NCBI GenBank assembly: GCA_017546885.1
Contig: JAFYRQ010000027.1
Span: forward strand, 1 to 24,229
Reading direction: 5' to 3'
Length of the DNA stretch: 24,229 bases
Origin: Alphaproteobacteria bacterium
Lineage (GTDB): Bacteria > Pseudomonadota > Alphaproteobacteria > RF32 > CAG-239
This document shows, piece after piece, positions 1-22,529 of this stretch; position 1 is the stretch's first letter, and each line of letters begins with the position of its first letter. The notes below the pieces were generated by a model. That model ran no database searches. It was given only the letters and a program-made list of their open reading frames with translations, and had not been told where the DNA came from. Made by a program: the position numbers and the translations under genes.

Positions 1-615
1 GTACACGCACAAAAAGATATAGCCTCAGGTCATATTGTAGAACTTGGAAAAGAGCCACGTCCCAATACAAGTTTAGATGCAGCAAACAGATTAATTGCAG
101 CTAAACACACAGTTACAACTCTTCCACAGCGTACTACAACACAAGAAGTTGAAACACCTCCTGTGGCTCCTGCTGAACCGGAAAAAACTCTTAAAGAAGA
201 AGGTATTGTTCAAGCTCAAGCTGATGAGGAAATAGCCAAAAAACAAAAACAAGTTGAAACAGACCCGCGCAGCGCTGAAAATGCAAGACGTGAACAAGCT
301 CACGAAGACAGAGGTAAAAAAATCAACCCGAGAATTGAAGAAATTAAAGCTCGTGCGTTAGCATCAAGACAAGCAAAACAAAGCGGTGCTGAGTTTATGG
401 TTGATGCGATGCTTGCAAACGGAAACTTGACACCGGAACAGCAAGAAGCTTTGTTAAATGCAGGTATTGCAGCCCAAAAAGCAGGAAAAGATGGTTCTAC
501 TGATCAAATTCTGAATAACATGAGAGAATCCGGACAGTTCAGTCAAGACCAAATTAAGACCGCTCGTGAAGTAAACTTTGCATACGGATTAGCCCAAAAG
601 ACAGGTAGAGAATAG
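1..615 (+). CDS. 5'-truncated hypothetical protein (Ala/Gln/Glu-rich C-terminus)
   Basis: Frame is open from base 1 (VHAQKDIASG...) to TAG at 613-615, so the 163 start in the track is internal. The stop shares one base with the GTG of the next gene. No family motif recognised. Confidence 0.8.
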   Translation, partial: VHAQKDIASGHIVELGKEPRPNTSLDAANRLIAAKHTVTTLPQRTTTQEVETPPVAPAEPEKTLKEEGIVQAQADEEIAKKQKQVETDPRSAENARREQAHEDRGKKINPRIEEIKARALASRQAKQSGAEFMVDAMLANGNLTPEQQEALLNAGIAAQKAGKDGSTDQILNNMRESGQFSQDQIKTAREVNFAYGLAQKTGRE

Positions 616-1130
616 TGAAAAAAATAAAGAAGTTTATTCGTTTCTGTTTTATCGGAGCAATATGGTCATATATCTATTTCGGAATAGTCGCATGGCTAAT
701 GAAATGGATTTGGAAATTTGATATTTTCGGTAAAAGGTATTGGATTAAAATATCTCGTTTTTGGCAAGATGGCGGTGTTATTGATACAGCGCAGGAATAT
801 TTCTTTGTAATCGCCTTGATTGCCATTATTCCGTTGTGGATATGGGGTTGGCGAAAAGCTATGAAAGTCTCGATAACCAAGATAATTTTCTTCCCTGTTT
901 TTTGGTATCACAATTATCAGGAAAAGAAATATGCTCAACTTCCCAAATCAATTACTTTGAAAAACATGGGATCAAAAGTAGGTGCTAAGCAAACGCCTCA
1001 ACAAATGTTAGAAGAAATGATTTCCAGTCGTATGCCGAAACAAAAAGATAAAAAAGATTTGAACTCAAGCAAAATTCGTAGTAGTTTTGAAGAAAAGAAT
1101 AAGACTTTTCATGAAAAAGTCGGTAAATAA
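615..1130 (+). CDS. Hypothetical membrane protein, paralog A (Trp-rich hydrophobic N-terminal domain, basic C-terminal tail)
   Basis: 171-aa ORF with GTG start coupled to the upstream stop (TAGTG). Two to three hydrophobic segments. Ungapped similarity to the N-terminus of the next ORF. Confidence 0.85.
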   Translation: MKKIKKFIRFCFIGAIWSYIYFGIVAWLMKWIWKFDIFGKRYWIKISRFWQDGGVIDTAQEYFFVIALIAIIPLWIWGWRKAMKVSITKIIFFPVFWYHNYQEKKYAQLPKSITLKNMGSKVGAKQTPQQMLEEMISSRMPKQKDKKDLNSSKIRSSFEEKNKTFHEKVGK

Positions 1131-1146
1131 GAAATAGGAGAATTTA

Positions 1147-2541
1147 TTGAAACCCTTACTCATACTTGCCAGAATCATAATTGTCGGTTTGTTATGGAGT
1201 GTTTTCTTCATGGAAAGCATTAGGGTTATTATGCTCCGTAACTGGCACTTTGACATCTTAAACATAGAACACTGGAATATCGCATGGAATTTGTGGTCCG
1301 ATTCGTGGGTTATATCAGAGCCTAAAGAGTGGGCTTTTGTACTCATTATCATATCGTTCATTCCTTTATGGTTCACAGGATGGATTGCTTTGAGCATGAT
1401 TTCTTGGGGTAAGATGATATGGTTTATCATAACTTTGCCATGGAGATTATTCAAAACATTGTTCTATAAACCGGTGAAAATCATTGCAACCAATACCGGT
1501 GTTACTCCGATTCGCAAAAAACGTTCATACAAAGAGATTCGTCCGCGAGCAATCAGAAGCACGACAACCACATATACAGACCAAATTGAACAGGAACCGC
1601 AACAAATTGTTTCCGTTCCGGCGCTTGCTCCGATTGTAATTCCGCCTTCATCAAAACCGAGCAAACCTGCTACTCAAAAATTTGACCACGCATTATTTAA
1701 GTTTGATGATGATGTTGACGATTTAGATTTTGATATTGATTCATTTGATGTTACCCCCGCTCAAAAACCGCAGGAAAATAATAACCATCGAAAAGAACGT
1801 TTTGATTATGACGAAGACGAAGCTCCGGCACGTCCTCGTAACAAACCTCAGAGCAGAGAAAGAGATAACGATAGAGATAGCGACAGACGCAACAGAAATT
1901 CTCGAGATAATGAGCGCCGTGACAGACAGGAACGAGCTCCCAGAAATGAGCGTCAGGAAAGAAATGAAAGACCGAATCGAGATTTCGAACGCCGCATAAA
2001 GGAAGATTTCAACAATAAAGAAAAACCGGTACAAAAACAACCGAGCGGCTCTTGTGTTGATATAATCAAACAAAAAGGCTATGAAGTTATCAGTCGTGTA
2101 AGTATCAAAAATACCATCATTGACTATGTCGGTGTCAGCGCAAATAAATTATGCTTGTGCATGCTAGACAGAGAACCTGGAGACTGGTTAGCGGATGAAG
2201 AACGTTTTAATGATGAAGAACCGTTATGGTTCTCTGAAAACTCGCACCGAGTTTCACCGGTTCGTAAAATTGATATAGCCAAAAGAATGATTGCGGATCG
2301 TTTGGAATCTGCTAACATAAAACTTGATATAGAAGCATTTGTAATTATCCAAATCGGTAATATTATAAATGCCGAAGATATGTTTGAAATTTGGGATTCT
2401 CTTGATATTCATGTAACCAGAATTGACAGAGGAACACCAAAAGAAATAAAATTGTTTGCCAGAGCATTACCTGATGCGGAAAAATCAATTGCACCGGGTA
2501 AACTTGATAAACTTATTAATTTATTGCGTAATATGGGATAA
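1147..2541 (+). CDS. Hypothetical membrane protein, paralog B: TM domain, charged low-complexity linker and C-terminal NERD-like (PD-(D/E)xK fold) domain
   Basis: 464 aa, TTG start with AGGAG RBS at 1136-1140. The C-terminal pattern IDYVGVSANKLCLCMLD...GDWLADEE...W...SPV parallels the NERD pattern IDH.V....GIFVIETK...GW...DE...W...NP. The domain call is by eye. Confidence 0.75.
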   Translation: MKPLLILARIIIVGLLWSVFFMESIRVIMLRNWHFDILNIEHWNIAWNLWSDSWVISEPKEWAFVLIIISFIPLWFTGWIALSMISWGKMIWFIITLPWRLFKTLFYKPVKIIATNTGVTPIRKKRSYKEIRPRAIRSTTTTYTDQIEQEPQQIVSVPALAPIVIPPSSKPSKPATQKFDHALFKFDDDVDDLDFDIDSFDVTPAQKPQENNNHRKERFDYDEDEAPARPRNKPQSRERDNDRDSDRRNRNSRDNERRDRQERAPRNERQERNERPNRDFERRIKEDFNNKEKPVQKQPSGSCVDIIKQKGYEVISRVSIKNTIIDYVGVSANKLCLCMLDREPGDWLADEERFNDEEPLWFSENSHRVSPVRKIDIAKRMIADRLESANIKLDIEAFVIIQIGNIINAEDMFEIWDSLDIHVTRIDRGTPKEIKLFARALPDAEKSIAPGKLDKLINLLRNMG

Positions 2542-2547
2542 CATAAA

Positions 2548-4731
2548 ATGGGATTACAAAAACGCGGAGAAGAATGGGCAGAATATGATCACGCGGTGCA
2601 ATGGATGTCATTGACCGTAATCATTACTCTTGTTGTAACAATTGTTTTAGCGGCGATAGCAATGCCGTTAGGCTACCTTATCGGCAATGGTGTATCAAAA
2701 GAATCCATTGAAACCGTCGGCAAATTTATGGCCACCATTTTTAACGATCCCGGATACCTTTTCAGACAATATGGTCGTTGGTTTAACCAAATATCTAACA
2801 GTCATGGTAGTTTCAGTTTAGGTATGTGGTTGCCGATTATACCTATTTTAACCCTTCCCATAGGCTTAATTATCGGTGCAATGAGTAACCCTTACCGATT
2901 TCAATCCAACATTCATGGTTCGGGACGTTTGGCAACCTTAAAAGATATTAAAGCCATGAAGTTGTTAGATGGCTTTTGTATGGTTGTAGGCAAATATAAA
3001 GGCTACTACTTAAAACTCCCTGAAACATTATCTACTCTATGTTGTGCACCTCCGGGAACCGGTAAAACCGTTGGAGTGGTTATCCCTACCATTTTCAATT
3101 CTAAAGGCATGAGCTTGGTTATTAACGACCCTAAACCGGAATTGTGCTACAGTACATCAGGTGCTCGCGCTAAAGATGGTCCGGTATTTATCATTAACTG
3201 GGGTGCGGAAGACAAGCCGGAGCAAGGTTTGTATTATCCGAGTTGGAATCCGTTGTCTCCTACAGCCTTACCGGTTGCAGGTCCGGCTCGTGATATGTAT
3301 ATCGACTCAATGTGTAATATTTTGGTGGAAGATCCTAAAGGCGGTGCCGACCCTCACTGGTCACAAACCGGTCGTGCGGCATTAACCGGATTTATTCACT
3401 TTATTTCTTCAAAATGCGAAAAAGCGCGTGCAAATGACTATTTCATCGGTCGTGTTTATGAAGGCAAACTTGATGCGGAAGATAAACAAGTTCTCGAAGG
3501 ATATTATGAAGAAATTAAAGGACACAATCCGGCTGCCGTAAGAGCCGTAACCGATTTGCGTAACAATAACCTTACTGTTGAAAACTATGTTCCTATCGGA
3601 ACTTGGGACTTGTTACCGGAAAAATGGGTCGGTCGTGAACCCTGTATTGCGATGATTATGGAGTGGTTGACCGAAGCACAAATCAAACAAGGTCGTGAAA
3701 TCCGTCGTCGTCTTGATGAAGGCGACCAAATGGCAGCAATGGCAGATCCTATGCGTGACTTGTTGGAAGCAGCTATTGATGAAGCCCGTAAGTATGGTTA
3801 TACTCAACGTGCCTACACGGAATTGTCATCATTAAGTAATATGCCTGATAAAGAACGTGGTTCCGTTATGTCAACAGCTTTCGCAGGTATCGGTGTATTC
3901 AAAAACTCGGCGGTTGTGGCAAGAACAAGCTTTTCTGACTTACAATTTAAAGATTTACGCGGTATGAAAGACCCGATTACCGGTGAATGGAAACCGATTT
4001 CGGTTTATTTGTCGGTTAACCAAGTGGATGCTCGTGCATTAGGTGTGATTAATGGTATTTTCATTGAATTGATGTCTTCGTACCTTATTTCAAACCCGCC
4101 AAACTTTGTTAATGCTTCAGACGGCAAAATGGGACCGTTCCCTTGTATGTTCGTATTGGACGAGTTTCCGCAAATGCCTAAACTTAAAGCGGTTATTGAC
4201 GGACCGGCGGTAGGACGTGGTCAAAAAGTGTCGTACTTGCTTATCGGACAAGATTTGGGACAAATTTCAGGTAAATACGGTAAGGATGACTTGGAAACGG
4301 TTATCTCTACCACCGCTTGCAAAATCATTTTATCACAGAACAACGAACAAACCGCTCAACGTTTCTCAAAAATGGTGGGTAACAAGACGGTTCAAACTTC
4401 TTCTTATTCAAAACAAGAAGGTTTTGCCAATAAAGGTGCTAACCCGTTCGCAAAGAATACAACTTATTCATTACAGGGTGTTTCGGTTATTACCGCATCT
4501 CAACTTTTGAGCTTACCTCAACTGAAACAGGTTGTATTAATGCAAAGTAACATTGACCACCCGATTATGGCAGATTCACCGCGTTGGTACTTGGATGCAA
4601 GAATGAAAGCTATGGCAAAACTTCCGCCTGCTCCGAATGTTCCGGAATGGATTGTTGCACAACGTGAAGACGTCAATGACAACATGATGGAAAAACTCGG
4701 ACTGGGAGAAGACGATAGTCAGGCCTCATAA
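2548..4731 (+). CDS. virD4: Type IV coupling protein, VirD4/TraG family ATPase
   Basis: Two N-terminal TM segments, HGSGRLA motif, Walker A APPGTGKT (3046-3069), INDPKPEL, ERGSVMST, Walker B LDEF (from 4156), GRGQKV...QDLGQISGKYG. Confidence 0.92.
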   Translation: MGLQKRGEEWAEYDHAVQWMSLTVIITLVVTIVLAAIAMPLGYLIGNGVSKESIETVGKFMATIFNDPGYLFRQYGRWFNQISNSHGSFSLGMWLPIIPILTLPIGLIIGAMSNPYRFQSNIHGSGRLATLKDIKAMKLLDGFCMVVGKYKGYYLKLPETLSTLCCAPPGTGKTVGVVIPTIFNSKGMSLVINDPKPELCYSTSGARAKDGPVFIINWGAEDKPEQGLYYPSWNPLSPTALPVAGPARDMYIDSMCNILVEDPKGGADPHWSQTGRAALTGFIHFISSKCEKARANDYFIGRVYEGKLDAEDKQVLEGYYEEIKGHNPAAVRAVTDLRNNNLTVENYVPIGTWDLLPEKWVGREPCIAMIMEWLTEAQIKQGREIRRRLDEGDQMAAMADPMRDLLEAAIDEARKYGYTQRAYTELSSLSNMPDKERGSVMSTAFAGIGVFKNSAVVARTSFSDLQFKDLRGMKDPITGEWKPISVYLSVNQVDARALGVINGIFIELMSSYLISNPPNFVNASDGKMGPFPCMFVLDEFPQMPKLKAVIDGPAVGRGQKVSYLLIGQDLGQISGKYGKDDLETVISTTACKIILSQNNEQTAQRFSKMVGNKTVQTSSYSKQEGFANKGANPFAKNTTYSLQGVSVITASQLLSLPQLKQVVLMQSNIDHPIMADSPRWYLDARMKAMAKLPPAPNVPEWIVAQREDVNDNMMEKLGLGEDDSQAS

Positions 4732-5015
4732 AAATAATAATAAATATATTTTAACAAATCCAATATCTTAATACATTTCGGATTAGTTAATGAATAATAT
4801 ACGGATTGAGCAATACGGCGGGTAGATACAATATCCGCCGCTCTTAATACAGCTAAATGTTGTGACAAAGCAGATTGACTTATACCCATAATTTTTTCCA
4901 GTTCACCTACATTTTTTTCCCCGCTTTGCAAATTACAAACTATTTCCAAACGTTTTGTATTTCCCAGAGCTTTGAGCATTTCTGCGCTTTTTTCAAATCT
5001 TTTCAAATTTTCCAT
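4719..5015 (-). CDS. ArsR/SmtB family regulator, BigR/SqrR/HlyU-like
   Basis: LKALGNTKRLEIVCNL...NVGEL...SQSALSQHLAVLR...RR..QSVYYSL winged HTH. Start reassigned to ATG at 5015 (GGAG 9 nt upstream), giving 98 aa. The longer ORF in the track extends through the intergenic region. Confidence 0.9.
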   Translation of the reverse strand: MENLKRFEKSAEMLKALGNTKRLEIVCNLQSGEKNVGELEKIMGISQSALSQHLAVLRAADIVSTRRIAQSVYYSLTNPKCIKILDLLKYIYYYFYEA

Positions 5016-5126
5016 CCCTAACATCTCCGTCAAATTAACAATTAGACATTTATAAAATAGACATTGATATTGAAATTTAAAGATTATGACCGTAATATAA
5101 TTAAAAAATTTTGGAGAATTATACAA

Positions 5127-5378
5127 ATGTCTGACGAAATAATTGAAAATATGAGTTTTGAAGATGCTCTGACCCGTTTAGAAGCTTTAGTTAGAGAATT
5201 GGAAGCCGGCAGAATAAAACTTGATGATGCGGTATCTGCATACGAACAAGCCGTAAAGTTAAAAAAATTCTGTGAAAACAAATTAAACGATGCAAAATTG
5301 AAAATCGAAAAAATAGAAACAAATTCAAACGGCAATGTTTCATTAACACCTTTAGATAAAATAGAAAACAATGAGTAA
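5127..5378 (+). CDS. xseB: Exodeoxyribonuclease VII small subunit
   Basis: SFEDALTRLEALVRELEAGRIKLDDAVSAYEQAVKLKKFC. Start reassigned to ATG 5127 after GGAG at 5113-5116. Adjacent to ispA as in the conserved operon. Confidence 0.95.
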   Translation: MSDEIIENMSFEDALTRLEALVRELEAGRIKLDDAVSAYEQAVKLKKFCENKLNDAKLKIEKIETNSNGNVSLTPLDKIENNE

Positions 5379-6273
5379 AATAGAAGAAACATTAAAAAGC
5401 TTTTCTAATCGCTTTAATCAGGAAATAAATAATTTCTTTTACTTTCCCGAAGGTTATGAACGCCGTGTTGTTGAAGCCATGTACTATTCAATGACACGAG
5501 GAGGAAAAAGACTACGTCCGTTTTTGTTATGTGAAACAGCTCGTATGTTAGGAGTAGATTTTACGCAATCATTAAATGTGGCGATGGCACTTGAAATGCT
5601 ACACACATATTCGCTTATCCATGATGACTTGCCGGCAATGGATGATGATGACATACGTCGCGGTTTTCCGACCTGCCATAAAAATTTTGACGAAGCAACA
5701 GCCATTATCGCCGGAGATGGTTTGTTGACTTACGCTTTTGAAATTATGAGCTATCCGCAAACCGTTCAAGATGCTAACACAAGATGTCGTTTAATTGAGA
5801 TGTTAGCCAGAGCAGCCGGAGCTTTTGACGGAATGGTAGCCGGTCAAATGTTAGATTTAATTGCTTCAACCTATGCAGCAAAAAGAGAAAATGCCGAAGC
5901 AATGATTAAACATATTGAAGAAATGAAAACCGGTCGTTTATTGCGTTATTCCGTTGAAGCCGGTGCTGTTTTAGGAAACGCAAATACTGAACAAATGACT
6001 GCGTTAATTAACTATTCTCGTAAAATCGGTATTGCATTTCAAATTGCAGATGATATTCTGGATGAAACGGGTGATGAAAATATCGTCGGTAAAACTTTGA
6101 GAAAGGATTCCGAACAAAACAAATTCACTTTTGTCAGTCTTTACGGACTGGATATGGCTCGAAAGATTGCCCAAGAGCTCATCGCCGGAGCTGAAGAAGA
6201 TTTACTTATATTCGGCAATAGTGCCGATAACTTAAAAGCCCTTGCTCACTATATTATTGAACGAAATCACTAA
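5371..6273 (+). CDS. ispA: Farnesyl/geranyl diphosphate synthase (polyprenyl synthetase)
   Basis: GGKRLRP, first Asp-rich motif HDDLPAMDDDDIRRG, GQMLDL, KTG, second motif FQIADDILD, GKT...D. Confidence 0.95.
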   Translation: MSKIEETLKSFSNRFNQEINNFFYFPEGYERRVVEAMYYSMTRGGKRLRPFLLCETARMLGVDFTQSLNVAMALEMLHTYSLIHDDLPAMDDDDIRRGFPTCHKNFDEATAIIAGDGLLTYAFEIMSYPQTVQDANTRCRLIEMLARAAGAFDGMVAGQMLDLIASTYAAKRENAEAMIKHIEEMKTGRLLRYSVEAGAVLGNANTEQMTALINYSRKIGIAFQIADDILDETGDENIVGKTLRKDSEQNKFTFVSLYGLDMARKIAQELIAGAEEDLLIFGNSADNLKALAHYIIERNH

Positions 6274-6284
6274 TGGAGGAAACA

Positions 6285-7223
6285 ATGAAAAACTTATGGA
6301 AAATATTTTTATTTGTAATTGCATTTGTTCTTCCTTGCACACAAGCTGCATCACAAGTGCAATTTGGCGTACCTAAAAAAATGTCAAATTCAATTTTGAG
6401 AATAAGCAGCTTCTATGACTATTATCCTTTAGGCAGTACCGCAAGCGGAAGATATGAGGGATTACTGGATACATTTTTAAAAGATTTTCAAACTTTTGCT
6501 AATTTTTCTGCTGAAATGTATCGAGGTCAAGATTACGAAGAAACAATTCGTACCGGAGCAAAAGGCAGATCTGACATAATTCTCGGAATGTATTCCGACA
6601 CCAGTATTTACGGAGATTTGAAATTCATCTATCCGGCCGCAATAGATAATCCGGTTCATCTGGTCATGCTTCCTTCTAAAATCTCTGCGGTAAAAAAAAT
6701 ATCTGATTTAAAAAATATGAAAGGTGCCATCGACAGTCGTGAATATTGGAGCGATTTTGTAAAAGATCAAATGCAAAACTTCAATTTGGAAAAGATTGAT
6801 AACTCCTATGATTTGTACGGCAAACTTTTGAGAGGAGAAATTGATTATATCTTCACCACCTATTGGTTCGGTTCAATTGAAATGATGAAATTGGGTGTAA
6901 GAGATTTAGTAACCTTGTCTAAAAAAAGCATCTGGAGTATGCCTGTTTTTATCGGAATATCAAAGATTTCCATGGAGAGAGATTATCTTTCTCACAATTT
7001 GACTCAGTGGCTGTCCCGTCAAGAAGTCAGAGACAAAATAAAAAATCGAGCTATCGAAATTTTGCAAAAAGTTGAAGAAGAAACCAGAGGAACGGTTCCA
7101 CCATCCTATATTTTGGAACAACCTAAAGAAGAAGCAAAAACTCCGGTTGAGGAAAAAAACAATCCGTTGCTATCTTCTTCTCCTCTTTTAGGTGGTCCGC
7201 TTTTAAATAATACAAATAACTGA
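6285..7223 (+). CDS. Exported solute-binding protein, probably family 3 (amino-acid-type periplasmic binding fold)
   Basis: Signal peptide MKNLWKIFLFVIAFVLPCTQA. Segments resembling family-3 SBPs (YYPLG...YEG...D; DLKFIYP; ISDLKNMKG; LLRGEIDYI). Start placed at ATG 6285 behind GGAGG; the alternative is 6273. Confidence 0.6.
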   Translation: MKNLWKIFLFVIAFVLPCTQAASQVQFGVPKKMSNSILRISSFYDYYPLGSTASGRYEGLLDTFLKDFQTFANFSAEMYRGQDYEETIRTGAKGRSDIILGMYSDTSIYGDLKFIYPAAIDNPVHLVMLPSKISAVKKISDLKNMKGAIDSREYWSDFVKDQMQNFNLEKIDNSYDLYGKLLRGEIDYIFTTYWFGSIEMMKLGVRDLVTLSKKSIWSMPVFIGISKISMERDYLSHNLTQWLSRQEVRDKIKNRAIEILQKVEEETRGTVPPSYILEQPKEEAKTPVEEKNNPLLSSSPLLGGPLLNNTNN

Positions 7224-7959: not shown

Positions 7960-8472
7960 ATGAAAAAATATGTTATTTTACTTCTTTGTATTTTGGCACT
8001 AAGCTCTTGCTCAAGCACGGCAGGCGGAGAAAAACGTCCGAGAAGACCTTGGTGGCAAATTCCTCCGTTCAGTTGGTTTGATGCTCATGGTGACGGACAA
8101 GAAATTTTTCACTGGCAACGTCCACGTACCAGTGTTCAGAAATTTGCAACCGACCATAAGTTTTGTATGACGGAGGCAGCACAATTTAAAATGATACCTT
8201 TTGTAAAAAAATGGTTCCATGAAACGATGTATACTGAAGAAGCGAATTTGGAAATAAGAGCCGATTGGAACGGAAAGAGCGGTATATGGGCCAGTTTTGT
8301 GCCTTATCCTGGGGCACAACCTCTTATGGTAAATACCCCAACACCGCAAGATGATGATGATATAAATTATCAAAAATATGTAAATTGCATGGAAGCCAGA
8401 GGCTATGTTACCCGTATCTATGACATACCTGATTCTACAAATTTATATTTGCGTAAAAAGGTTTCTCAATAG
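7960..8472 (+). CDS. Hypothetical lipoprotein
   Basis: MKK plus hydrophobic stretch plus lipobox LSSC. Starts 2 nt after the fzlA stop. Contains D..FCM and Y.NCMEARGY motifs. Confidence 0.8.
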   Translation: MKKYVILLLCILALSSCSSTAGGEKRPRRPWWQIPPFSWFDAHGDGQEIFHWQRPRTSVQKFATDHKFCMTEAAQFKMIPFVKKWFHETMYTEEANLEIRADWNGKSGIWASFVPYPGAQPLMVNTPTPQDDDDINYQKYVNCMEARGYVTRIYDIPDSTNLYLRKKVSQ

Positions 8473-14250: not shown

Positions 14251-15288
14251 ATGTTATATAGTTTTCTAAATGCCTATACTGCCGACTTTTTGGCATTTTT
14301 TACTTCATTAATAATAATGCTTTTATGCGGCAAAAAATTTATTAAATTAATGCGTGCATGGCAACATGAAGGGCAGCCGATAAGAGAGTGCGGACCTAAA
14401 AGCCATTTGGAGACAAAAAAAGGAACTCCTACAATGGGAGGAATTTTGATTTTAGCTTCAATTATAATATCAACTTTGCTCTTTGCCAATCTCAAACAAG
14501 GAATGACCTGGGTATGTTTAGGTGTTATGATTGTTTTCGGAATTGCCGGCTTTATTGATGACTATGTAAAAGTAAAAAAACATACTCCTAATGCAATGAC
14601 CGCAAAAGTTAAACTGCTAATTCAATTTGCCGTTGCTGCCGGAGTAGCATATTTTGCCACAACACAATATGAAGCCCCTATGAACTTTAGCATTATTGTT
14701 CCCTATCTCGACTTCCCGATTAATTTGTGGTGGTTTTACATACCGTTTGCCATGGTTGTAATTGCCGGTGCTTCCAATGCCGTAAACTTAAGTGACGGAC
14801 TAGACGGATTGGCAGCAGGCTTGCTTATTCCTCCTTTTATGGTTTTAGGATTTATTGCTCTTTTAATCGGCTTTGAATATTACGATTTTATGCCATTCCC
14901 GAGTTTAAGCATCATTTGTTCTGCCGTTATCGGAGCTTGTTTGGGATTTTTGTGGTTCAACTGCTCTCCTGCTCAAATTTTTATGGGCGATACCGGTTCT
15001 TTGTCTCTCGGTGCCCTTTTGGGAACGATTGCTATTTTGGCTAAACAAGATTTATTATTGGCAATTATAGGTTTTGTTTTTGTTGCAGAAGCTTTGTCGG
15101 TAATGATACAGGTTTTTTGGTACAAACGCACCAAAACAAGAGTATTTTTAATGGCTCCCATTCATCACCACTTTGAACAAAAAGGGTGGAAAGAAACAAC
15201 TGTGGTAATACGTTTTTGGGTTATCGGTTGGTTGGTTGCCGGCCTCGGAATGCTCGCAGTTGTAAGCCCTACCGCATGGGGAAACTAA
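14251..15288 (+). CDS. mraY: Phospho-N-acetylmuramoyl-pentapeptide transferase
   Basis: KKGTPTMGG, GFIDDYVK, NAVNLSDGLDGLA, FMGDTGSL, APIHHHFEQKGW. Confidence 0.97.
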   Translation: MLYSFLNAYTADFLAFFTSLIIMLLCGKKFIKLMRAWQHEGQPIRECGPKSHLETKKGTPTMGGILILASIIISTLLFANLKQGMTWVCLGVMIVFGIAGFIDDYVKVKKHTPNAMTAKVKLLIQFAVAAGVAYFATTQYEAPMNFSIIVPYLDFPINLWWFYIPFAMVVIAGASNAVNLSDGLDGLAAGLLIPPFMVLGFIALLIGFEYYDFMPFPSLSIICSAVIGACLGFLWFNCSPAQIFMGDTGSLSLGALLGTIAILAKQDLLLAIIGFVFVAEALSVMIQVFWYKRTKTRVFLMAPIHHHFEQKGWKETTVVIRFWVIGWLVAGLGMLAVVSPTAWGN

Positions 15289-16416
15289 ATGCTGATATCT
15301 CGCGGTAAAAATAACTTTTTTACAAATTGGTGGTGGACTGTTGATAAAATATTACTCGGTTGTATTATCGCGTTAATTACCATAGGGGTAATTTTATGTT
15401 TTTCAGCCTCCCCGGCTGTTGCCGAAAGAGAAGGTTTCGGAAGTTATCACTTTATAAAACGCCACCTGATATTTGCTCCTGTTGCACTAGGAATTGTTAT
15501 TTCTTTATCTATGCTAAAACTTAAAACCATCCGCAGAATTGCTCTGTTAGGATATTTAGTTGCCATGATATTGGTCGGGATGACTTTTTTCCTAGGAGAA
15601 GCGAACAGAGGTGCATCTCGTTGGATTCCTTTTTTTGGTTTTACTTTACAACCTTCAGAATTTGTAAAACCATTCTTTATCATTATGGCCGCTTGGCTGT
15701 TTAACGGACAAAAACAACAACCTGATTTCCCCGGAAATTTCTTGTCAATCGGACTGTTTATAATTACGGCAAGCGCGATACTTTTTCAACCTGATATCGG
15801 AATGACTACCGTTGTATCCGTCATCTGGGCCGCTCAATTAGTGTTAAGCGGAATTCCGTTATTTTGGATAATTATATTAGGTATATTGGCTATTATCGGA
15901 GTAATAATCGGATATTTTACTTTTCCGCATTTTCAGATGCGCATACTTCAATTTTTCGCCTCAGGAAATGATACACCATATCAAATTAAACGTGCAAATG
16001 AAGCTTTTGCAAGCAGCAATTTTTTTGGCAGAGGTCCCGGAGAAGGAATAGCACGCTCTCATATCCCAGATGCCCATACAGACTTTATTTATGCCGTAAT
16101 TGCCGAAGAATACGGATTTTTTATCTGTCTTGCCGTTGTCCTTTTATACGCAACAATAGTTATTCGCTCGCTCATATTATCATGCAGAGAAAACAATTTT
16201 TTCATTGTTTTATCTGTTTCGGGACTTGCTCTGTCTTTCGGTATTCAAGCAGTAATTAATATGGCATCAACTCTGCAATTAATGCCAACTAAAGGTATGA
16301 CCTTGCCGTTTATATCCTATGGCGGTTCTTCAATATTGGCATCTGCAATAGGTATGGGAATGCTTCTGGCAATCACTCGTAAAAACTCTCATGCGGAGGA
16401 TAAAGATAATGTCTGA
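15289..16416 (+). CDS. ftsW: SEDS peptidoglycan glycosyltransferase FtsW
   Basis: GASRWI, QPSEFVKP, QPDIG, PDAHTDFI, EEYG, PTKGMTLPFISYGGSS; located between mraY and murG. Confidence 0.96.
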   Translation: MLISRGKNNFFTNWWWTVDKILLGCIIALITIGVILCFSASPAVAEREGFGSYHFIKRHLIFAPVALGIVISLSMLKLKTIRRIALLGYLVAMILVGMTFFLGEANRGASRWIPFFGFTLQPSEFVKPFFIIMAAWLFNGQKQQPDFPGNFLSIGLFIITASAILFQPDIGMTTVVSVIWAAQLVLSGIPLFWIIILGILAIIGVIIGYFTFPHFQMRILQFFASGNDTPYQIKRANEAFASSNFFGRGPGEGIARSHIPDAHTDFIYAVIAEEYGFFICLAVVLLYATIVIRSLILSCRENNFFIVLSVSGLALSFGIQAVINMASTLQLMPTKGMTLPFISYGGSSILASAIGMGMLLAITRKNSHAEDKDNV

Positions 16417-17515
16417 CAGCAAAAAAAAACTCATAATTCTAACTGCCGGTGGCACCGGAGGACATGTTTATCCTGCGGATGCACTTGCACAAGAACTTGA
16501 AAAACGCAACTATAATTTAATGTTGGTTACGGACCAAAGAGGACTGAACAACTATCACGGCAAACTGAGCGAAATTGAAAACAAAGCCGTATTAAGCGGT
16601 GCTTTAGTCGGTAAAAATATTTGGTTTAAGATAAAAAGTTTAATTAAAGTTTCTTTAGGTATTTTACAATCCGTTTATATTATTATCAAATATAAGCCCG
16701 AGTGTGTTGTAGGTTTCGGCGGATATGCTTCATTTCCTTGTGCAGTTGCTGCCATCCTGACAGGAACAGATTTAATAATTCACGAACAAAACTCGGTTAT
16801 GAGCCGAACAAATCGCTTTTTAGCTAAATATGCTTCTAAAATAGCCACAAGCTTTCCTAAAACAAAATATGCTCCGCAAGGAAATCAAACTGTTTTAACC
16901 GGTATGCCGGTAAGAACAACAATATCTGCACTTTTTGATAAACAATACAAACAACCTGAACAAAACGGAAAATTTAATCTGTTGGTTCTGGGCGGTTCAC
17001 AAGGAGCAAAAATCTTCTCGGAAGTCATACCGCAAGCAATTAAATCTCTTGATGAAAAAATTCAGCAAAATATTCATATCACGCAACAGTGCAGAAAAGA
17101 TGACATTGAGCTGTTGCAAAAAGAATATTCGGATGCAAAATGTTCTGCCGAAATATCAAATTTCTTCAAAAATATGCCGGAATTATATGATACGAACCAC
17201 ATTATCATATCTCGCGCCGGTGCTTCTTCCGTTTGTGAAATTGCAGCTGCGGGAATTCCGTCAATTTTAGTTCCGTTACCGACGGCAGCAGACGATCATC
17301 AAACATTTAATGCTTCCGAATTTAAGAATAAAAATGGCGGCATGGTAATCGCTCAAAAAGATTTCACAGCCGAAAAACTGCAAGAAATATTGGAAAAATT
17401 TATAAATAATCCGACAGAATTGGAAATAATGGCAAGAAACACCAAAAAATTTGCAATCATTGATGCCGATAAACGTCTTGCCGATGTTGTAGAAACAATT
17501 ATAAAGAGAGGTTAA
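16409..17515 (+). CDS. murG: Lipid II N-acetylglucosaminyltransferase MurG
   Basis: GGTGGHVYP, GFGGY, HEQN, GGSQGA, RAGASS, DDHQ..NA. Start reassigned to ATG 16409 behind GGAGGA at 16395-16400. Confidence 0.97.
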   Translation: MSDSKKKLIILTAGGTGGHVYPADALAQELEKRNYNLMLVTDQRGLNNYHGKLSEIENKAVLSGALVGKNIWFKIKSLIKVSLGILQSVYIIIKYKPECVVGFGGYASFPCAVAAILTGTDLIIHEQNSVMSRTNRFLAKYASKIATSFPKTKYAPQGNQTVLTGMPVRTTISALFDKQYKQPEQNGKFNLLVLGGSQGAKIFSEVIPQAIKSLDEKIQQNIHITQQCRKDDIELLQKEYSDAKCSAEISNFFKNMPELYDTNHIIISRAGASSVCEIAAAGIPSILVPLPTAADDHQTFNASEFKNKNGGMVIAQKDFTAEKLQEILEKFINNPTELEIMARNTKKFAIIDADKRLADVVETIIKRG

Positions 17516-17516
17516 T

Positions 17517-18437
17517 ATGTTTAATTTTTTCAAAAAGAAACCTATGCTTAAACTTCTCCCGAAAGTTAAAGGAAAATACTTAAATAATGTCAATTTAAGC
17601 AAACATACGTGGTTTGGTGTCGGTGGTCCTGCCGAAGTTATGTATATTCCGTCAGATGAAAATGATTTGAGCTATTTTTTAAAAAACTGCCCTAAAAATA
17701 TTCCTACTTTTGTAATCGGTGGCGGTTCAAATTTGCTGGTGCGTGACGGTGGCATTCCCGGTGTGGTAATCAAACTCGATTCGCCATCATTCAAAAAGAT
17801 AACCTTAGGTGATAACGAAATAACCTGCGGAGCCGGATTAAAAAATATTGAACTGAAAAAACACTTGATTGCCAATGAATTGGGCGGACTGGAATTTTTA
17901 TGTTCAATTCCGGGAGTAATCGGCGGGTCGGTAAAAACAAATGCCGGATGTTTCGGAAAAGAAGTTAAAGATGTTATAACCTCTGCTCAGATTATAAACG
18001 GAGACGGCGAAATTAAAACCATCGGTGTAAAAGATTTAGAGCTTGATTACAGAACAAGTTGTTTTCCTGATGATTGGATTATCTTATCAATCAGCTTTAA
18101 AACAACTAAAGACAGTAAGGAAAATATTGAAAAAACTTTAGCAGAGCAAAAAGCATATCGACAAGCCAATCAGCCATATAACCAAAAAACTGCCGGTTCA
18201 ACTTTCAAAAATCCCAAAGGATTGCGAGCATGGGAATTAATAAAAAAATCCGAATGCGATTCGTTGGTTGTCGGCGGAGCAAAAGTTTCTGATAAACATT
18301 GCAATTTTTTGATTAACACCGGCAATGCTACCGCAAAAGATATTGAAACCTTGGGGGAAACCATAATATCTCAGGTTCGTCAAAAAACATATATCACACT
18401 TGAATGGGAAGTTAAAAGAGTAGGCATAGATAAATAG
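17517..18437 (+). CDS. murB: UDP-N-acetylenolpyruvoylglucosamine reductase
   Basis: TWFGVGGPAE, GGGSNLLV, IPGVIGG...NAG, YRTS, GSTFKNP, HCNFLIN, LEWEV. Confidence 0.96.
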   Translation: MFNFFKKKPMLKLLPKVKGKYLNNVNLSKHTWFGVGGPAEVMYIPSDENDLSYFLKNCPKNIPTFVIGGGSNLLVRDGGIPGVVIKLDSPSFKKITLGDNEITCGAGLKNIELKKHLIANELGGLEFLCSIPGVIGGSVKTNAGCFGKEVKDVITSAQIINGDGEIKTIGVKDLELDYRTSCFPDDWIILSISFKTTKDSKENIEKTLAEQKAYRQANQPYNQKTAGSTFKNPKGLRAWELIKKSECDSLVVGGAKVSDKHCNFLINTGNATAKDIETLGETIISQVRQKTYITLEWEVKRVGIDK

Positions 18438-19322
18438 ATGTGGTTTTGGAAAAAAAACATAAAACCGGAAATTCCGGCTCAAAAAGTCGATGAGAAATAT
18501 AAGGTATATTTACCAAAATTATGGCCTTATCGTTTCATCGGCAATTTGTGTCTTTTGTGGCTCATCGCTGCCGTTTCTTTTGGTATATATGTTGCAAAAA
18601 CTAATTTTGTAGAACAAAAACTCGATACATTTTCCGACTACTTTATCGATATAACCTCTAAGATTGGTTTTACCGTTGATGACGTGATTATTCAAGGGCG
18701 AGACAAGACTCCTTTGGAAGATATAAAAAACATCATAAATTTAGCCAATAACAACAATATCTTTAACATTGATATTCATCAGATAAAACAAGATATTTTG
18801 CTGCTTCCGTGGGTAAAAACGGTTGTAATTGAACGTTCATATTTTCCAAATAATATAAATATAAAAATAACCGAAAAAGAAATAAGCGCAATTTGGCAAA
18901 CAAACAACAGTTTTTATCCGGTTGACAAAGATGGTTTTGTTATAAAAACCAACCATATTCCCGTTGTTCCTACACTCATTATTACGGGTAAAGGCGCTCC
19001 TGAAAATATCAACAAGCTGTTGCCGATAATACAAGAAGACGATTCGCTTTACAAACGCATCAAGGCTGCCTCATATATTTCTGAACGACGTTGGGATATT
19101 ATTTTGGACGATATTGAAAATGGTGTGACCATAAGACTTCCGGCCGAAAAGACAAAAAATGCTTGGAAAAAATTGATAAAATTGAGCAAAACGCAAGGAC
19201 TTCTTAAGCGTAAATTAACCATCATTGATTTAAGATTCGGGAACAAAGTTGTAGTGACTCCGTTAAAGCTCTCAAAAGAAGAGCGATTGCGTCGTCGAAA
19301 CATTAAAGAACACAAACTATAA
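18438..19322 (+). CDS. ftsQ: Cell division protein FtsQ/DivIB
   Basis: Single TM segment, POTRA-like region (LPWVKTVVIERSYFPNNINIKITE), RRWDIIL, IDLR; directly upstream of ftsA. Confidence 0.92.
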   Translation: MWFWKKNIKPEIPAQKVDEKYKVYLPKLWPYRFIGNLCLLWLIAAVSFGIYVAKTNFVEQKLDTFSDYFIDITSKIGFTVDDVIIQGRDKTPLEDIKNIINLANNNNIFNIDIHQIKQDILLLPWVKTVVIERSYFPNNINIKITEKEISAIWQTNNSFYPVDKDGFVIKTNHIPVVPTLIITGKGAPENINKLLPIIQEDDSLYKRIKAASYISERRWDIILDDIENGVTIRLPAEKTKNAWKKLIKLSKTQGLLKRKLTIIDLRFGNKVVVTPLKLSKEERLRRRNIKEHKL

Positions 19323-20608
19323 TGGGTGCAAAAACAATGAATTCCTTTAGCCGACATACATTAATTGCTGCTTTAGACATAGGCTCATCTAAGGTATGTT
19401 GTGTTATTGCACGTGTGAACGGCAGAGATAAGAAAATATCTATTGTCGGATATGGCTACAATGCCGCAAAAGGAATTCAAAACGGTGTAATTACAAATTT
19501 CAATCAGGCAACCTACTCTATTTGTGATGCACTCGAAGCCGCTGAACAAATGGCAAATGAACGTGTAGAAAGAGTTATTGTCAACATATCAAGCAGCAAA
19601 ACCAAAAGTGTTATCAAACGCGCTTCGATTCCTCTTAATAAAACTAAGCCGGTTACCGAAATTGAGGCTAAAAAAGCTAAAGATAAAGCAACATACAAAT
19701 TAAACATTGAGGACAATGAACTCATCCACTGCTTAACCACAGGGTATCGTCTCGATTTTGGCGAAGAAATCAGTGATCCGCGTAATATGTACGGTGAAAA
19801 CTTATCTGCCGATGTTTTGCTCGGCATGGTTCCGGCAATTACATATCGCAACACTCAAACCGTTCTCGATAATGCACATTTAGAGATTGCCGGAAAGGTT
19901 TTATCTCCTTATGCATCGGGGCTTGCTTGTCTTGTTGAAGATGAAAAAGAGTTGGGAGCAACAATCATTGATATAGGCGGTGGCACGACCAGTATAGCTA
20001 CATTTATGCACGGTCATCCGGTGTATTTCAGTTCTATCGGTGTCGGCGGAGACAATGTAACAAAAGATATTGCTTGGGGTTTGACCACGTCTTTTGCTCA
20101 TGCCGAAAGATTGAAAACCTTACATGGTTGCGCATTCTTAAATTCTCAAGATGCAAATGAAACAATTAATGTATATCCGGTCGGCGAAGAAGACGACAGC
20201 TTGATAAAATATATACCAAAGTCAAACTTAATCGAAATCATTGCCCCTCGTGTTGAAGAGATTTTTGAACTTGTAAATCAAAAACTTGATGAAGCCGGAT
20301 TAAAAGAAGTAAACTCTCACCGCATCGTATTAACCGGAGGCGGAAGTCAATTATTGGGAATAAGAGAAGTTGCATCGCTTATCCTTGACAAACAAGTTCG
20401 TTTAGGTCGTCCGAGAAATATCGGAAACACTCTGGACATATCCGAATTTGAGGTTCTGCAATATCCGTCATTTTCAACGGTTATCGGGTTGCTTTTATTC
20501 GTCTTAAATCATCCCGAAATTAAACCTACAAAAATCATTTCTAAACCGGTTAATCCGGACGGAAGTCGCTTCAGCAAAATTCTTAGTTGGCTAAAGAATA
20601 ATTTTTAA
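19322..20608 (+). CDS. ftsA: Cell division protein FtsA
   Basis: ALDIGSSKV, IDIGGGTT, GGDNVTKDI, AERLK, VLTGGGSQL, C-terminal amphipathic helix. An alternative start is ATG 19337. Confidence 0.97.
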   Translation: MGAKTMNSFSRHTLIAALDIGSSKVCCVIARVNGRDKKISIVGYGYNAAKGIQNGVITNFNQATYSICDALEAAEQMANERVERVIVNISSSKTKSVIKRASIPLNKTKPVTEIEAKKAKDKATYKLNIEDNELIHCLTTGYRLDFGEEISDPRNMYGENLSADVLLGMVPAITYRNTQTVLDNAHLEIAGKVLSPYASGLACLVEDEKELGATIIDIGGGTTSIATFMHGHPVYFSSIGVGGDNVTKDIAWGLTTSFAHAERLKTLHGCAFLNSQDANETINVYPVGEEDDSLIKYIPKSNLIEIIAPRVEEIFELVNQKLDEAGLKEVNSHRIVLTGGGSQLLGIREVASLILDKQVRLGRPRNIGNTLDISEFEVLQYPSFSTVIGLLLFVLNHPEIKPTKIISKPVNPDGSRFSKILSWLKNNF

Positions 20609-22493: not shown

Positions 22494-22529
22494 ATATACA
22501 TATTGAAAAACTTTACGGAGAAACATCTC

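What the first reader, a model, noticed from the sequence alone, without database searches (positions are those of the whole stretch)
1..4731. Stand-alone coupling-ATPase module: VirD4/TraG co-transcribed with two paralogous membrane proteins and a dead-nuclease domain
Seen: four same-strand genes with a 1-nt overlap and 16- and 6-nt gaps, ending in a T4CP with intact Walker A and B, immediately followed by a regulator and housekeeping genes. There is no virB, relaxase, oriT-like feature or integrase in the window. Arg codons in virD4 look CGT-rich, which would suit a resident, expressed gene. Established: T4CPs belong to the FtsK/HerA-like translocase superfamily and usually sit with T4SS or relaxase genes; the Legionella DotL coupling protein needs dedicated membrane partners such as DotM. 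Inference: the two Trp-rich membrane proteins may be accessory subunits of an undescribed coupling complex that selects protein or nucleic-acid substrates, or the T4CP has been domesticated for another task such as DNA uptake or handling, or defence. This is the best candidate for a new system here.
Basis: partly seen in the sequence, partly recalled or inferred. Interest (0 to 1): 0.82.

Follow-up and report, generated by a model that had tools for sequence, protein, structure and literature searches.

The report
Coupling ATPase islet of scattered T4SS
A secretion-system "coupling" ATPase and its unknown partner genes form a conserved core operon in uncultured gut Alphaproteobacteria; the operon is not a stand-alone machine but the detached substrate-receptor part of a type IV secretion system encoded elsewhere in the genome, with a new kind of nuclease-fold membrane partner.

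Summary
Four same-strand genes (1-nt overlap, then 16- and 6-nt gaps) end in a VirD4/TraG coupling protein (T4CP) with Walker A and B motifs. Two upstream genes share a Trp-rich two-helix membrane module. The longer one ends in a NERD/restriction-endonuclease-like fold that lacks the catalytic residues.

"Stand-alone" holds for the locus only. VirB4 is single-copy in 120 of 121 genomes of the order; only this 70%-complete MAG lacks it. A near-identical genome (module 91-100% identical) has it on another contig. A same-genus relative carries virB2-B3?-B4-B8-B9-B10-B11 at a separate locus. Three relaxase families were almost never found.

The operon p306 / variable protein / A / B / T4CP is syntenic in 80 species-level genomes. 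B-like genes sit directly upstream of this T4CP clade in every carrier examined. They co-occur with it 16/16 in a class-wide sample. Sister T4CPs, which follow virB11 in the two loci inspected, lack B. Animal-gut metatranscriptome contigs cover the genes and bridge their junctions.

Best reading: this is the substrate-receptor islet of a vertically inherited, scattered, probably non-conjugative T4SS, with new candidate auxiliary subunits. Binding is not shown.

This scan had already found the module on other genomes.

The parts
1..615 (+). C-terminal 204 aa of a ~623-aa soluble, acidic, low-complexity protein ('p623'). It is cut by the contig start. It is the fast-evolving member of the operon.
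   Evidence: The 5'-open ORF is 184/204 identical to the C-terminus of L006:7598-9469. It has no Pfam match and no hydrophobic helix. It was detectable by tblastn in only 30 of 80 related loci, although the slot is always occupied.
615..1130 (+). Paralogue A (171 aa): a Trp-rich two-helix membrane module plus a short basic tail. It looks like a cut-down copy of B.
   Evidence: 32% identical to B over residues 1-93, E = 3e-13. Two hydrophobic helices. Present in 78 of 80 related loci. In other families the corresponding copy is full length, with the C-terminal domain.
1147..1491 (+). Paralogue B, N-terminal membrane module (residues 1-115): two TM helices, a Trp-rich loop and an amphipathic helix.
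   Evidence: Model pLDDT 84-95; helices at 2-33, 40-51, 59-84 and 87-115. Invariant F35 and W43; W33, W50, W54, P73 and W75 in at least 90% of rows.
1492..2046 (+). Paralogue B, disordered linker (about residues 116-300), with a conserved acidic FDHxLFKFDD..DFDxDxF motif and an Arg/Asp/Glu-rich stretch.
   Evidence: pLDDT below 50. Length and sequence vary across the family.
2047..2541 (+). Paralogue B, C-terminal NERD / restriction-endonuclease-like domain (residues 301-464) without the catalytic motif. The conserved surface is GDWLADEERFNDEEPLWFSE..SP.
   Evidence: AlphaFold DB clusters: many NERD-domain proteins, E down to 4.7e-6. PDB: AF1548, NucS, Can2, Card1 and restriction enzymes, Z 6-8.8. 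Language-model neighbours are NERD clusters, score 0.90. The D and ExK columns vary, while A349, E351, P359, W361, E364, S370, P371, G404 and N408 are invariant.
2548..4731 (+). VirD4/TraG-family type IV coupling protein (727 aa) with a two-helix membrane anchor, a P-loop ATPase domain and an acidic C-terminal tail.
   Evidence: PF02534 3e-59, PF12696 and PF10412. Helices at 20-38 and 91-109. 72-99% identical across 79 related species loci.
3046..3069 (+). Walker A motif (APPGTGKT)
4147..4164 (+). Walker B motif (MFVLDE)
4719..5126 (-). ArsR/SmtB-type regulator, convergent with the T4CP. It marks the downstream edge and is not conserved with the module.
   Evidence: PF01022 4e-14 and NF033788 3.9e-25. 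The downstream genes differ in a relative whose B is 48% identical.

Best explanation
The four genes are the 3' part of a five-gene core operon: p306, a variable ~620-aa protein, A, B and the T4CP. In this lineage of uncultured gut Alphaproteobacteria the operon is the detached substrate-receptor islet of a chromosomal, vertically inherited type IV secretion system. The channel genes (virB2, B3?, B4, B8, B9, B10, B11) lie at another locus.

Inferred mechanism: the T4CP hexamer sits in the inner membrane. A and B insert beside it through their shared Trp-rich two-helix module. B holds a catalytically dead NERD-fold domain in the cytoplasm on a long flexible tether, next to the T4CP's ATPase domain. 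There it acts as an auxiliary receptor or adaptor (a 'D4Aux' in the 2025 nomenclature) that helps select substrates. The T4CP then feeds these substrates to the VirB channel.

Relaxases are essentially absent and the system is core rather than mobile, so the substrates are more likely proteins than conjugative DNA. The soluble p306, which has a conserved basic C-terminal tail, and the fast-evolving p623 may be adaptors or substrates.

Shown: gene content, conservation, linkage, fold, presence in RNA libraries, and the presence of channel genes elsewhere.
Inferred: physical binding, membrane topology, kind of substrate, and use of that channel.
For: - VirB4 is single-copy in 120 of 121 genomes of the order. 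It is missing only from this 70%-complete MAG.
- It is present on another contig of the near-identical genome G369, whose module proteins are 91-100% identical to the window's.
- The same-genus genome G114 has virB2 x2, a virB3-sized gene, virB4, virB8 x2, virB9, virB10 and virB11, followed by tgt, at a locus without virD4.
- B is present in 119 of 121 genomes of the order.
- The order rpoH<-rluD<- | p306 - X - A - B - T4CP is kept in 80 species-level loci.
- In a 251-genome class sample the same 16 genomes carry B and a T4CP at least 50% identical to this one. B lies directly upstream in all five loci outside the order that I inspected. 13 of the 14 carriers outside the order also have VirB4, at other loci.
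- T4CP tree: 15 of the 16 B-linked T4CPs form one clade (SH-aLRT 98), and the tree also allows all 16 on one side of a branch (support 33). The sister clade lacks B, and in the two of its loci I inspected it stands in the canonical virB10-virB11-virD4 order.
- Relaxases: PF03432 in 2 of 61 genomes, PF08751 in 0 of 41, PF03389 in 1 of 41.
- Contigs from four animal-gut metatranscriptome libraries cover A, B and the T4CP and bridge the p623/A, A/B and B/T4CP junctions. Bases 4861-5400 have zero depth in all four.
- T4CPs that work with auxiliary proteins are established for Dot/Icm, F and Cag (PMC12857230).
Against: - No physical evidence that A or B binds the T4CP. The one co-fold (T4CP + B 1-100 + B 296-464) gave no verdict.
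- Co-occurrence of the T4CP and VirB4 cannot discriminate inside the order, because both are universal there.
- The T4CP is never next to channel genes in this clade, so use of that channel is inferred.
- Only three relaxase families were searched, so an unrecognised relaxase is possible.
- A NERD fold is ancestrally a nucleic-acid-handling fold, which keeps a DNA- or RNA-related role open.
- The RNA evidence consists of assembled contigs from metatranscriptomes. Related strains and DNA carry-over cannot be excluded, and a contig spanning two genes does not prove a single transcript.
Confidence: 0.6

Rival explanations
1. Channel-independent motor. The T4CP has been recruited, together with the membrane-tethered NERD-fold protein, for a job that does not use the VirB channel. 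Examples would be handling or translocating DNA or RNA at the inner membrane, as FtsK/SpoIIIE relatives do.
For: The operon is always separate from the channel genes in this clade. Its partner has a nucleic-acid-enzyme fold. The T4CP is far more conserved (72-99%) than its neighbours. The sister T4CPs I inspected keep the canonical virB11-virD4 order, whereas this clade left it.
Against: A VirB4 is present wherever the module is, except in two incomplete genomes. The separate virB locus of G114 has no T4CP of its own, so the VirB system there would lack a coupling protein unless it uses this one. The nuclease catalytic residues are gone. No T4CP is known to work without a channel (my own knowledge).
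Confidence: 0.17
2. A and B are not subunits of a coupling complex. They are co-transcribed cargo or clients, for example membrane effectors, an immunity-like pair, or assembly or localisation factors.
For: Only linkage has been shown, not binding. A and B evolve much faster than the T4CP (27-96% and 44-93% against 72-99%). Copy number varies from one to three between families.
Against: Strict adjacency and 16/16 co-occurrence with a single T4CP clade across about 13 families is the pattern expected of a dedicated partner. B's predicted topology (inference) puts the conserved domain in the cytoplasm beside the ATPase.
Confidence: 0.12
3. Remnant of a conjugative or integrative element: an ICE or plasmid T4CP stranded in the chromosome.
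For: The T4CP family is typical of conjugative elements. The T4CP's G+C content is slightly above that of its neighbours.
Against: The module is core and syntenic between rluD/rpoH and other housekeeping genes in 80 species. The frames are intact and highly conserved. Relaxases are nearly absent. There is no tRNA or integrase in the window.
Confidence: 0.03
4. Anti-phage defence system built on a P-loop translocase plus a nuclease-fold effector.
For: Superficially, an ATPase next to a nuclease-like domain is a common defence layout.
Against: No PADLOC model matches, except a marginal P-loop hit at E = 1e-3. The nuclease motif is dead. The module is universal, single-copy and syntenic rather than patchy.
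Confidence: 0.03

Closest known systems
Rickettsiales vir homolog (rvh) P-type T4SS 'archipelago' (Gillespie et al. 2009, PMC2653234)
   Same: A chromosomal, vertically inherited VirB/D4-type system in small alphaproteobacterial genomes. It is split into separate islets among housekeeping genes, some components are duplicated (here VirB2 and VirB8), and it has no link to conjugation.
   Different: In rvh, as I recall it, virD4 follows virB11; here the T4CP has left that position and heads its own islet with unknown partners. That canonical order is what I saw in the sister T4CP loci. I did not see duplicated VirB4 or VirB9, or five VirB6 copies. I could not place named Rickettsiales sequences in the tree.
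Legionella Dot/Icm type IV coupling complex: DotL with DotM, DotN, DotY, DotZ and IcmS/W ('D4Aux' proteins, PMC12857230)
   Same: The idea of a T4CP working with dedicated auxiliary proteins is the same, including an inner-membrane protein whose cytoplasmic domain takes part in substrate recognition. As I recall, the membrane partner's gene is also next to the T4CP gene.
   Different: There is no sequence or fold similarity to DotM or any other Dot protein. This T4CP is VirD4-type (PF02534), not DotL-type. The partner's domain is a NERD / restriction-endonuclease fold. Binding is not shown.
NERD domain proteins (PF08378) and other PD-(D/E)XK nuclease-fold proteins
   Same: Same fold, and the same structural motifs after strand 3 (G..x..W, then S/N-P before the helix).
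   Different: No Pfam NERD match. The catalytic Asp and (D/E)xK are not conserved. The domain is fused to a Trp-rich membrane module by a long disordered tether and is tied to a T4CP.
VirD4 of canonical VirB/D4 systems (Agrobacterium, Bartonella, Xanthomonas)
   Same: The same family, the same domain order and the same motifs. The role as substrate receptor is presumed to be the same.
   Different: This T4CP scores far below every NCBIfam equivalog cut-off (best 145 bits against a cut-off of 250). It is encoded away from virB11 and is accompanied by four unknown proteins.

Membership tests
VirD4/TraG type IV coupling proteins | Match to PF02534 / PF12696 / PF10412 above the curated cut-offs | tested here: met
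   201.5, 83.5 and 66.8 bits against cut-offs of 20.1, 22 and 20.5
VirD4/TraG type IV coupling proteins | N-terminal membrane anchor followed by a P-loop domain with Walker A and B | tested here: met
   Helices at 20-38 and 91-109. APPGTGKT at 167-174 and MFVLDE at 534-539.
VirD4/TraG type IV coupling proteins | A cognate T4SS channel (VirB4 and others) in the same genome | tested here: inconclusive
   No VirB4 or VirB10 in this 70%-complete MAG. VirB4 is present in 120 of 121 genomes of the order, in the near-identical genome G369, and in 13 of 14 carriers outside the order.
Conjugative element / ICE | Relaxase, plus integrase or replication functions, and patchy distribution | tested here: not met
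   Relaxase families found in 2/61, 0/41 and 1/41 genomes. The module is core and syntenic. No tRNA or integrase in the window.
NERD / PD-(D/E)XK nucleases | Restriction-endonuclease-like alpha/beta fold | tested here: met
   Foldseek against AlphaFold DB: NERD clusters, E 4.7e-6 to 1e-3. PDB: AF1548, NucS, Can2 and restriction enzymes, Z 6-8.8.
NERD / PD-(D/E)XK nucleases | Catalytic D ... (D/E)xK residues | tested here: not met
   These alignment columns vary: D/N/S/A at the first position, and MLD, LTP, FEE, VMG or EGP at the ExK position.
NERD / PD-(D/E)XK nucleases | Match to Pfam NERD (PF08378) | tested here: not met
   No Pfam family at E <= 0.01 for the window's B. At E <= 1 the near-identical copy matches nothing, and a 48%-identical copy matches only low-complexity families, not NERD.
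rvh-type scattered chromosomal T4SS | VirB/D4 genes split into islets among core genes and inherited vertically | tested here: met
   The T4CP islet and the virB locus lie on different contigs, or tens of kb apart on the same contig. Both are universal in the order.
rvh-type scattered chromosomal T4SS | rvh-specific layout: virD4 after virB11; duplicated VirB4 and VirB9; five VirB6 copies | tested here: not met
   virB11 is followed by tgt in G114. There is one VirB4 per genome. No VirB6 match in the large ORFs.
Dot/Icm-type coupling complex (DotM-like auxiliary subunit) | Homology of the partner to DotM, DotN, DotY or DotZ | tested here: not met
   The profile and fold searches of the PDB return no Dot protein.
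Dot/Icm-type coupling complex (DotM-like auxiliary subunit) | Physical association with the T4CP | tested here: inconclusive
   Co-fold score 0.00; no verdict either way.

The most novel reading that the evidence does not exclude
A and B found a new family of T4CP auxiliary subunits: membrane-tethered, catalytically dead NERD-fold receptors. This family arose once, together with the departure of virD4 from the virB operon. It defines a new type of coupling complex for a core, non-conjugative T4SS in a widespread but uncultured group of human and animal gut Alphaproteobacteria. A bolder variant is that the dead nuclease fold still binds nucleic acid, so that the system exports or imports DNA or RNA without a classical relaxase.
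Probability: 0.4. Interest if true: 0.72.

Novelty: new variant of a known kind. Interest (0 to 1): 0.55.

Why it matters
How T4CPs choose substrates, and where they dock, is an open question in the T4SS field. Auxiliary 'D4Aux' subunits are well described only for Dot/Icm, F and Cag (PMC12857230). This module offers a natural, strongly conserved T4CP-plus-partner cassette with a recognisable but repurposed fold, and it is found in hundreds of species-level genomes.

It also points to a core secretion system in an uncultured gut lineage. One member's record title is 'Proteobacteria bacterium CAG:495'; from memory, GTDB places that genome in order RF32. The lineage's genomes are 1.3-1.9 Mb, and my literature searches found no paper describing a T4SS in it. 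A core secretion system in such small genomes suggests a lifestyle that depends on contact with other cells.

Tried and rejected
- Co-fold of the T4CP with B(1-100) and B(296-464): score 0.00, no verdict. It is evidence neither for nor against binding.
- p306: a confident all-helical model (pLDDT 82). It has no meaningful match in the PDB, AlphaFold DB clusters, the wide VIA search (only generic helical bundles, Z <= 8.8) or the ESM Atlas. Language-model searches of p306 and p623 gave no usable hit.
- PDB sequence searches with the T4CP alone and with the B profile found nothing relevant.
- B's membrane module shows no similarity to the T4CP's own anchor.
- DUF6476, the small gene upstream of p306, is not specific to the module. 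It was found in 23 of 151 sampled alphaproteobacterial genomes, most of them 2-6 Mb genomes that lacked the module in the earlier class searches.
- PADLOC defence models: no match beyond a marginal P-loop hit.
- The promoter and terminator consensus scan was no richer than shuffled sequence and was not used.
- Literature searches: 'RF32' with 'type IV secretion' returned 0 papers. 'RF32' with 'secretion system' returned one unrelated microbiome paper. 'VirD4' with 'NERD domain' returned two unrelated papers.
The 'rvh-like' label therefore rests on layout, not on a named phylogeny.
Full report
**What is in the window**

The window is the first 24,229 bases of contig C39 of a 624-kb MAG in 70 contigs, 70% complete. 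Four + strand ORFs occupy 1-4731. They are a 5'-open frame (1-615), a 171-aa gene (615-1130, paralogue A), a 464-aa gene (1147-2541, paralogue B) and a 727-aa gene (2548-4731).

The last gene is a VirD4/TraG coupling protein. It matches PF02534 (3e-59), PF12696 and PF10412. It has two N-terminal hydrophobic helices, Walker A APPGTGKT and Walker B MFVLDE. It scores far below every NCBIfam equivalog cut-off, so it is a divergent member.

A and B share a Trp-rich two-helix module: 32% identity over 93 residues, E = 3e-13.

The rest of the window is housekeeping. It holds ArsR, xseB, FPP synthase, an FzlA-like GST, an RND efflux system, and mraY, ftsW, murG, murB, ftsQ, ftsA and ftsZ. There is no tRNA.

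**What lies upstream**

The contig starts inside the first gene, so I used a genome whose module proteins are 91-100% identical to the window's (L006/L031). There the order is rpoH<- rluD<- | DUF6476, a 306-aa protein (p306), a 623-aa protein (p623, whose last 204 residues are the window's first ORF), A, B, T4CP.

The same order holds in a relative whose B is 48% identical, although its downstream genes differ. It also holds in 80 species-level genomes fetched with the B profile:
- T4CP in 79 of 80 loci; the one exception ends at its contig edge.
- A in 78 of 80.
- p306 in all 73 loci that still reach rluD upstream.
- A divergent ORF always fills the p623 slot.

Identity to the window's proteins is 72-99% for the T4CP, 44-93% for B, 27-96% for A and 41-100% for p306. 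p623 is barely recognisable beyond the genus.

DUF6476 is not specific to the module. It was found in 23 of 151 sampled alphaproteobacterial genomes, most of them 2-6 Mb genomes that lacked the module in the earlier class searches. The module is therefore p306, p623, A, B and the T4CP.

**Is the T4CP stand-alone? No.**

VirB4 and VirB10 are not found in this incomplete MAG. VirB4 is present exactly once in each of the other 120 genomes sampled from the order. It is also present in the near-identical genome, on a different contig from the module.

In a same-genus genome (G114; its T4CP is 99% identical) a separate locus carries these genes, in order:
- two VirB2 pilins and a VirB3-sized gene;
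- VirB4;
- several unknown ORFs;
- two VirB8 genes;
- a VirB9 with a SPOR domain;
- a 1470-aa repeat protein;
- a 1440-aa VirB10;
- VirB11, followed by tgt.

That locus has no T4CP of its own. This MAG does hold a lone VirB8 homologue on contig C44.

Relaxases of three families were found in 2 of 61, 0 of 41 and 1 of 41 genomes. The lineage therefore has a core, split, apparently non-conjugative VirB/D4 system, and the window shows its T4CP islet.

**How old and how tight is the link between the paralogues and the T4CP?**

B is present in 119 of 121 genomes of the order. In a 251-genome sample of the class, 16 genomes from about 13 families have a credible B match. I discount a 17th, marginal hit at E = 2.8e-4. 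The same 16 genomes have a T4CP at least 50% identical to this one.

In all five loci outside the order that I inspected, one to three B-like genes lie directly upstream of the T4CP. Usually these are two full-length copies. A therefore looks like a truncated copy specific to this lineage.

Thirteen of the 14 carriers outside the order also have VirB4, always at another locus. The exception is a 78%-complete genome.

In a T4CP tree, 15 of the 16 B-linked proteins form one clade (SH-aLRT 98). The 16th is a long branch from a 63%-complete genome and is unresolved next to that clade. The tree allows all 16 on one side of a branch (support 33). The sister clade comes from 0.9-2.0-Mb genomes without B. 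In two of its loci the gene order is the canonical virB10-virB11-virD4. This fits a single event in which virD4 left the virB operon and acquired these partners.

**What the partners look like**

B was modelled with a 20-sequence alignment. The model has three parts:
- a confident membrane module (residues 1-115);
- a disordered linker of about 185 residues;
- a confident alpha/beta domain (residues 301-464).

That C-terminal domain matches NERD-domain clusters in the AlphaFold DB (E down to 4.7e-6). In the PDB it matches PD-(D/E)XK proteins such as AF1548, NucS, Can2, Card1 and restriction enzymes. Language-model neighbours are also NERD clusters.

The catalytic Asp and (D/E)xK columns are not conserved. 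The stretch GDWLADEERFNDEEPLWFSE..SP is nearly invariant.

From the positive-inside rule I infer that both ends of the membrane module, and hence the NERD-fold domain, face the cytoplasm, as does the T4CP's ATPase domain. This is inference.

p306 gives a confident all-helical model with no informative match anywhere. It ends in a conserved basic motif, RFFG.IK..P.DG...N...G.FLKKLK. p623 is soluble, acidic, low in complexity and fast evolving.

**Expression**

Four animal-gut metatranscriptome libraries contain contigs 93-100% identical to A, B and the T4CP. Some contigs bridge the p623/A, A/B and B/T4CP junctions. None of the four covers 4861-5400. This fits an expressed, co-transcribed unit. 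It does not prove one, because these are assembled contigs from mixed communities.

**Interpretation**

The best-supported reading (confidence about 0.6) is a substrate-receptor islet of a scattered, vertically inherited T4SS, in which A and B are new candidate auxiliary subunits of the T4CP. This is analogous in concept to DotM and its partners (PMC12857230), but there is no homology to them. In layout the system is closest to the Rickettsiales rvh 'archipelago' (PMC2653234). Unlike rvh, the T4CP here is detached from virB11.

The main rival (about 0.17) is a channel-independent role for the T4CP with its nuclease-fold partner. Against it, the virB locus I inspected (G114) has no T4CP of its own, and VirB4 is present wherever the module is. 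A cargo/client role for A and B (about 0.12) cannot be excluded, because binding is untested; the single co-fold gave no verdict. The ICE-remnant and defence readings are contradicted by the core, syntenic distribution, the near absence of relaxases and the lack of defence-model matches.

**Novelty and context**

My literature searches found no description of a T4SS in this lineage, nor of a NERD-fold partner of VirD4. The scan itself had already met this module in several other genomes. Earlier follow-ups were split between 'orphan' and 'part of a T4SS encoded elsewhere'. My VirB4 counts support the second view.

I rate the finding a new variant of a known kind. It is of moderate to good interest for T4SS biology and for understanding an uncultured gut lineage.

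Noticed in passing
window 14251-20608: The dcw genes run mraY, ftsW, murG, murB, ftsQ, ftsA with abutting or overlapping ends. No murD, murC or ddl lies between them (Pfam). This is the subject of another first-reader note.
   Followed up: partly
L015:1-6450 and L015:6782 to L019:12366 (genome G114, same genus): The virB locus has an unusual 1440-aa VirB10 and a 1470-aa neighbour. Both are full of beta-flower, DUF3659 and RHS-type repeats. The VirB9 carries a SPOR domain. The locus abuts a type IVb-pilus-like set (TcpQ, secretin, PilO).
   Followed up: partly
L017:10321-11100 (-) = own genome, contig C44: A lone VirB8 homologue (PF04335, 6.6e-16) sits next to an oligopeptidase F gene and an OEP/Ig-like 638-aa ORF. 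It is a further T4SS islet in the window's own genome.
   Followed up: partly
L026:6751-7761 (-), L029:6168-7217 (-), L030:14079-14930 (+), L028:5799-7100 (-), L027:6814-7494 (-): In carrier families outside the order, the gene just downstream of the T4CP encodes a conserved C-terminal domain of about 190 aa (36-55% identity). The two I scanned have no Pfam match. It is not at that position in the window's lineage.
   Followed up: partly
e.g. G227:C16:23263-25344, G138:C36:96253-98325, G333:C44:142684-144798: Many genomes that carry the module outside the order have a second, deeper-branching T4CP paralogue (32-42% identity) at another locus. Some also have extra B-like genes away from any T4CP.
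   Followed up: partly
L006:6586-7506 (p306, upstream of the window in the near-identical genome): The C-terminal motif RFFG.IK..P.DG...N...G.FLKKLK is strongly conserved, and residues 70-306 form a confident helical fold without known relatives.
   Followed up: partly
window 6273-7223, 7960-8472 and 22503-24227: Three sizeable + strand ORFs (316, 170 and 575 aa) among housekeeping genes have no Pfam or NCBIfam match.
   Followed up: no
window 2548-4731: The T4CP has the highest G+C (0.427) and the strongest CGT bias (72% of Arg codons) of the window genes I tabulated.
   Followed up: partly
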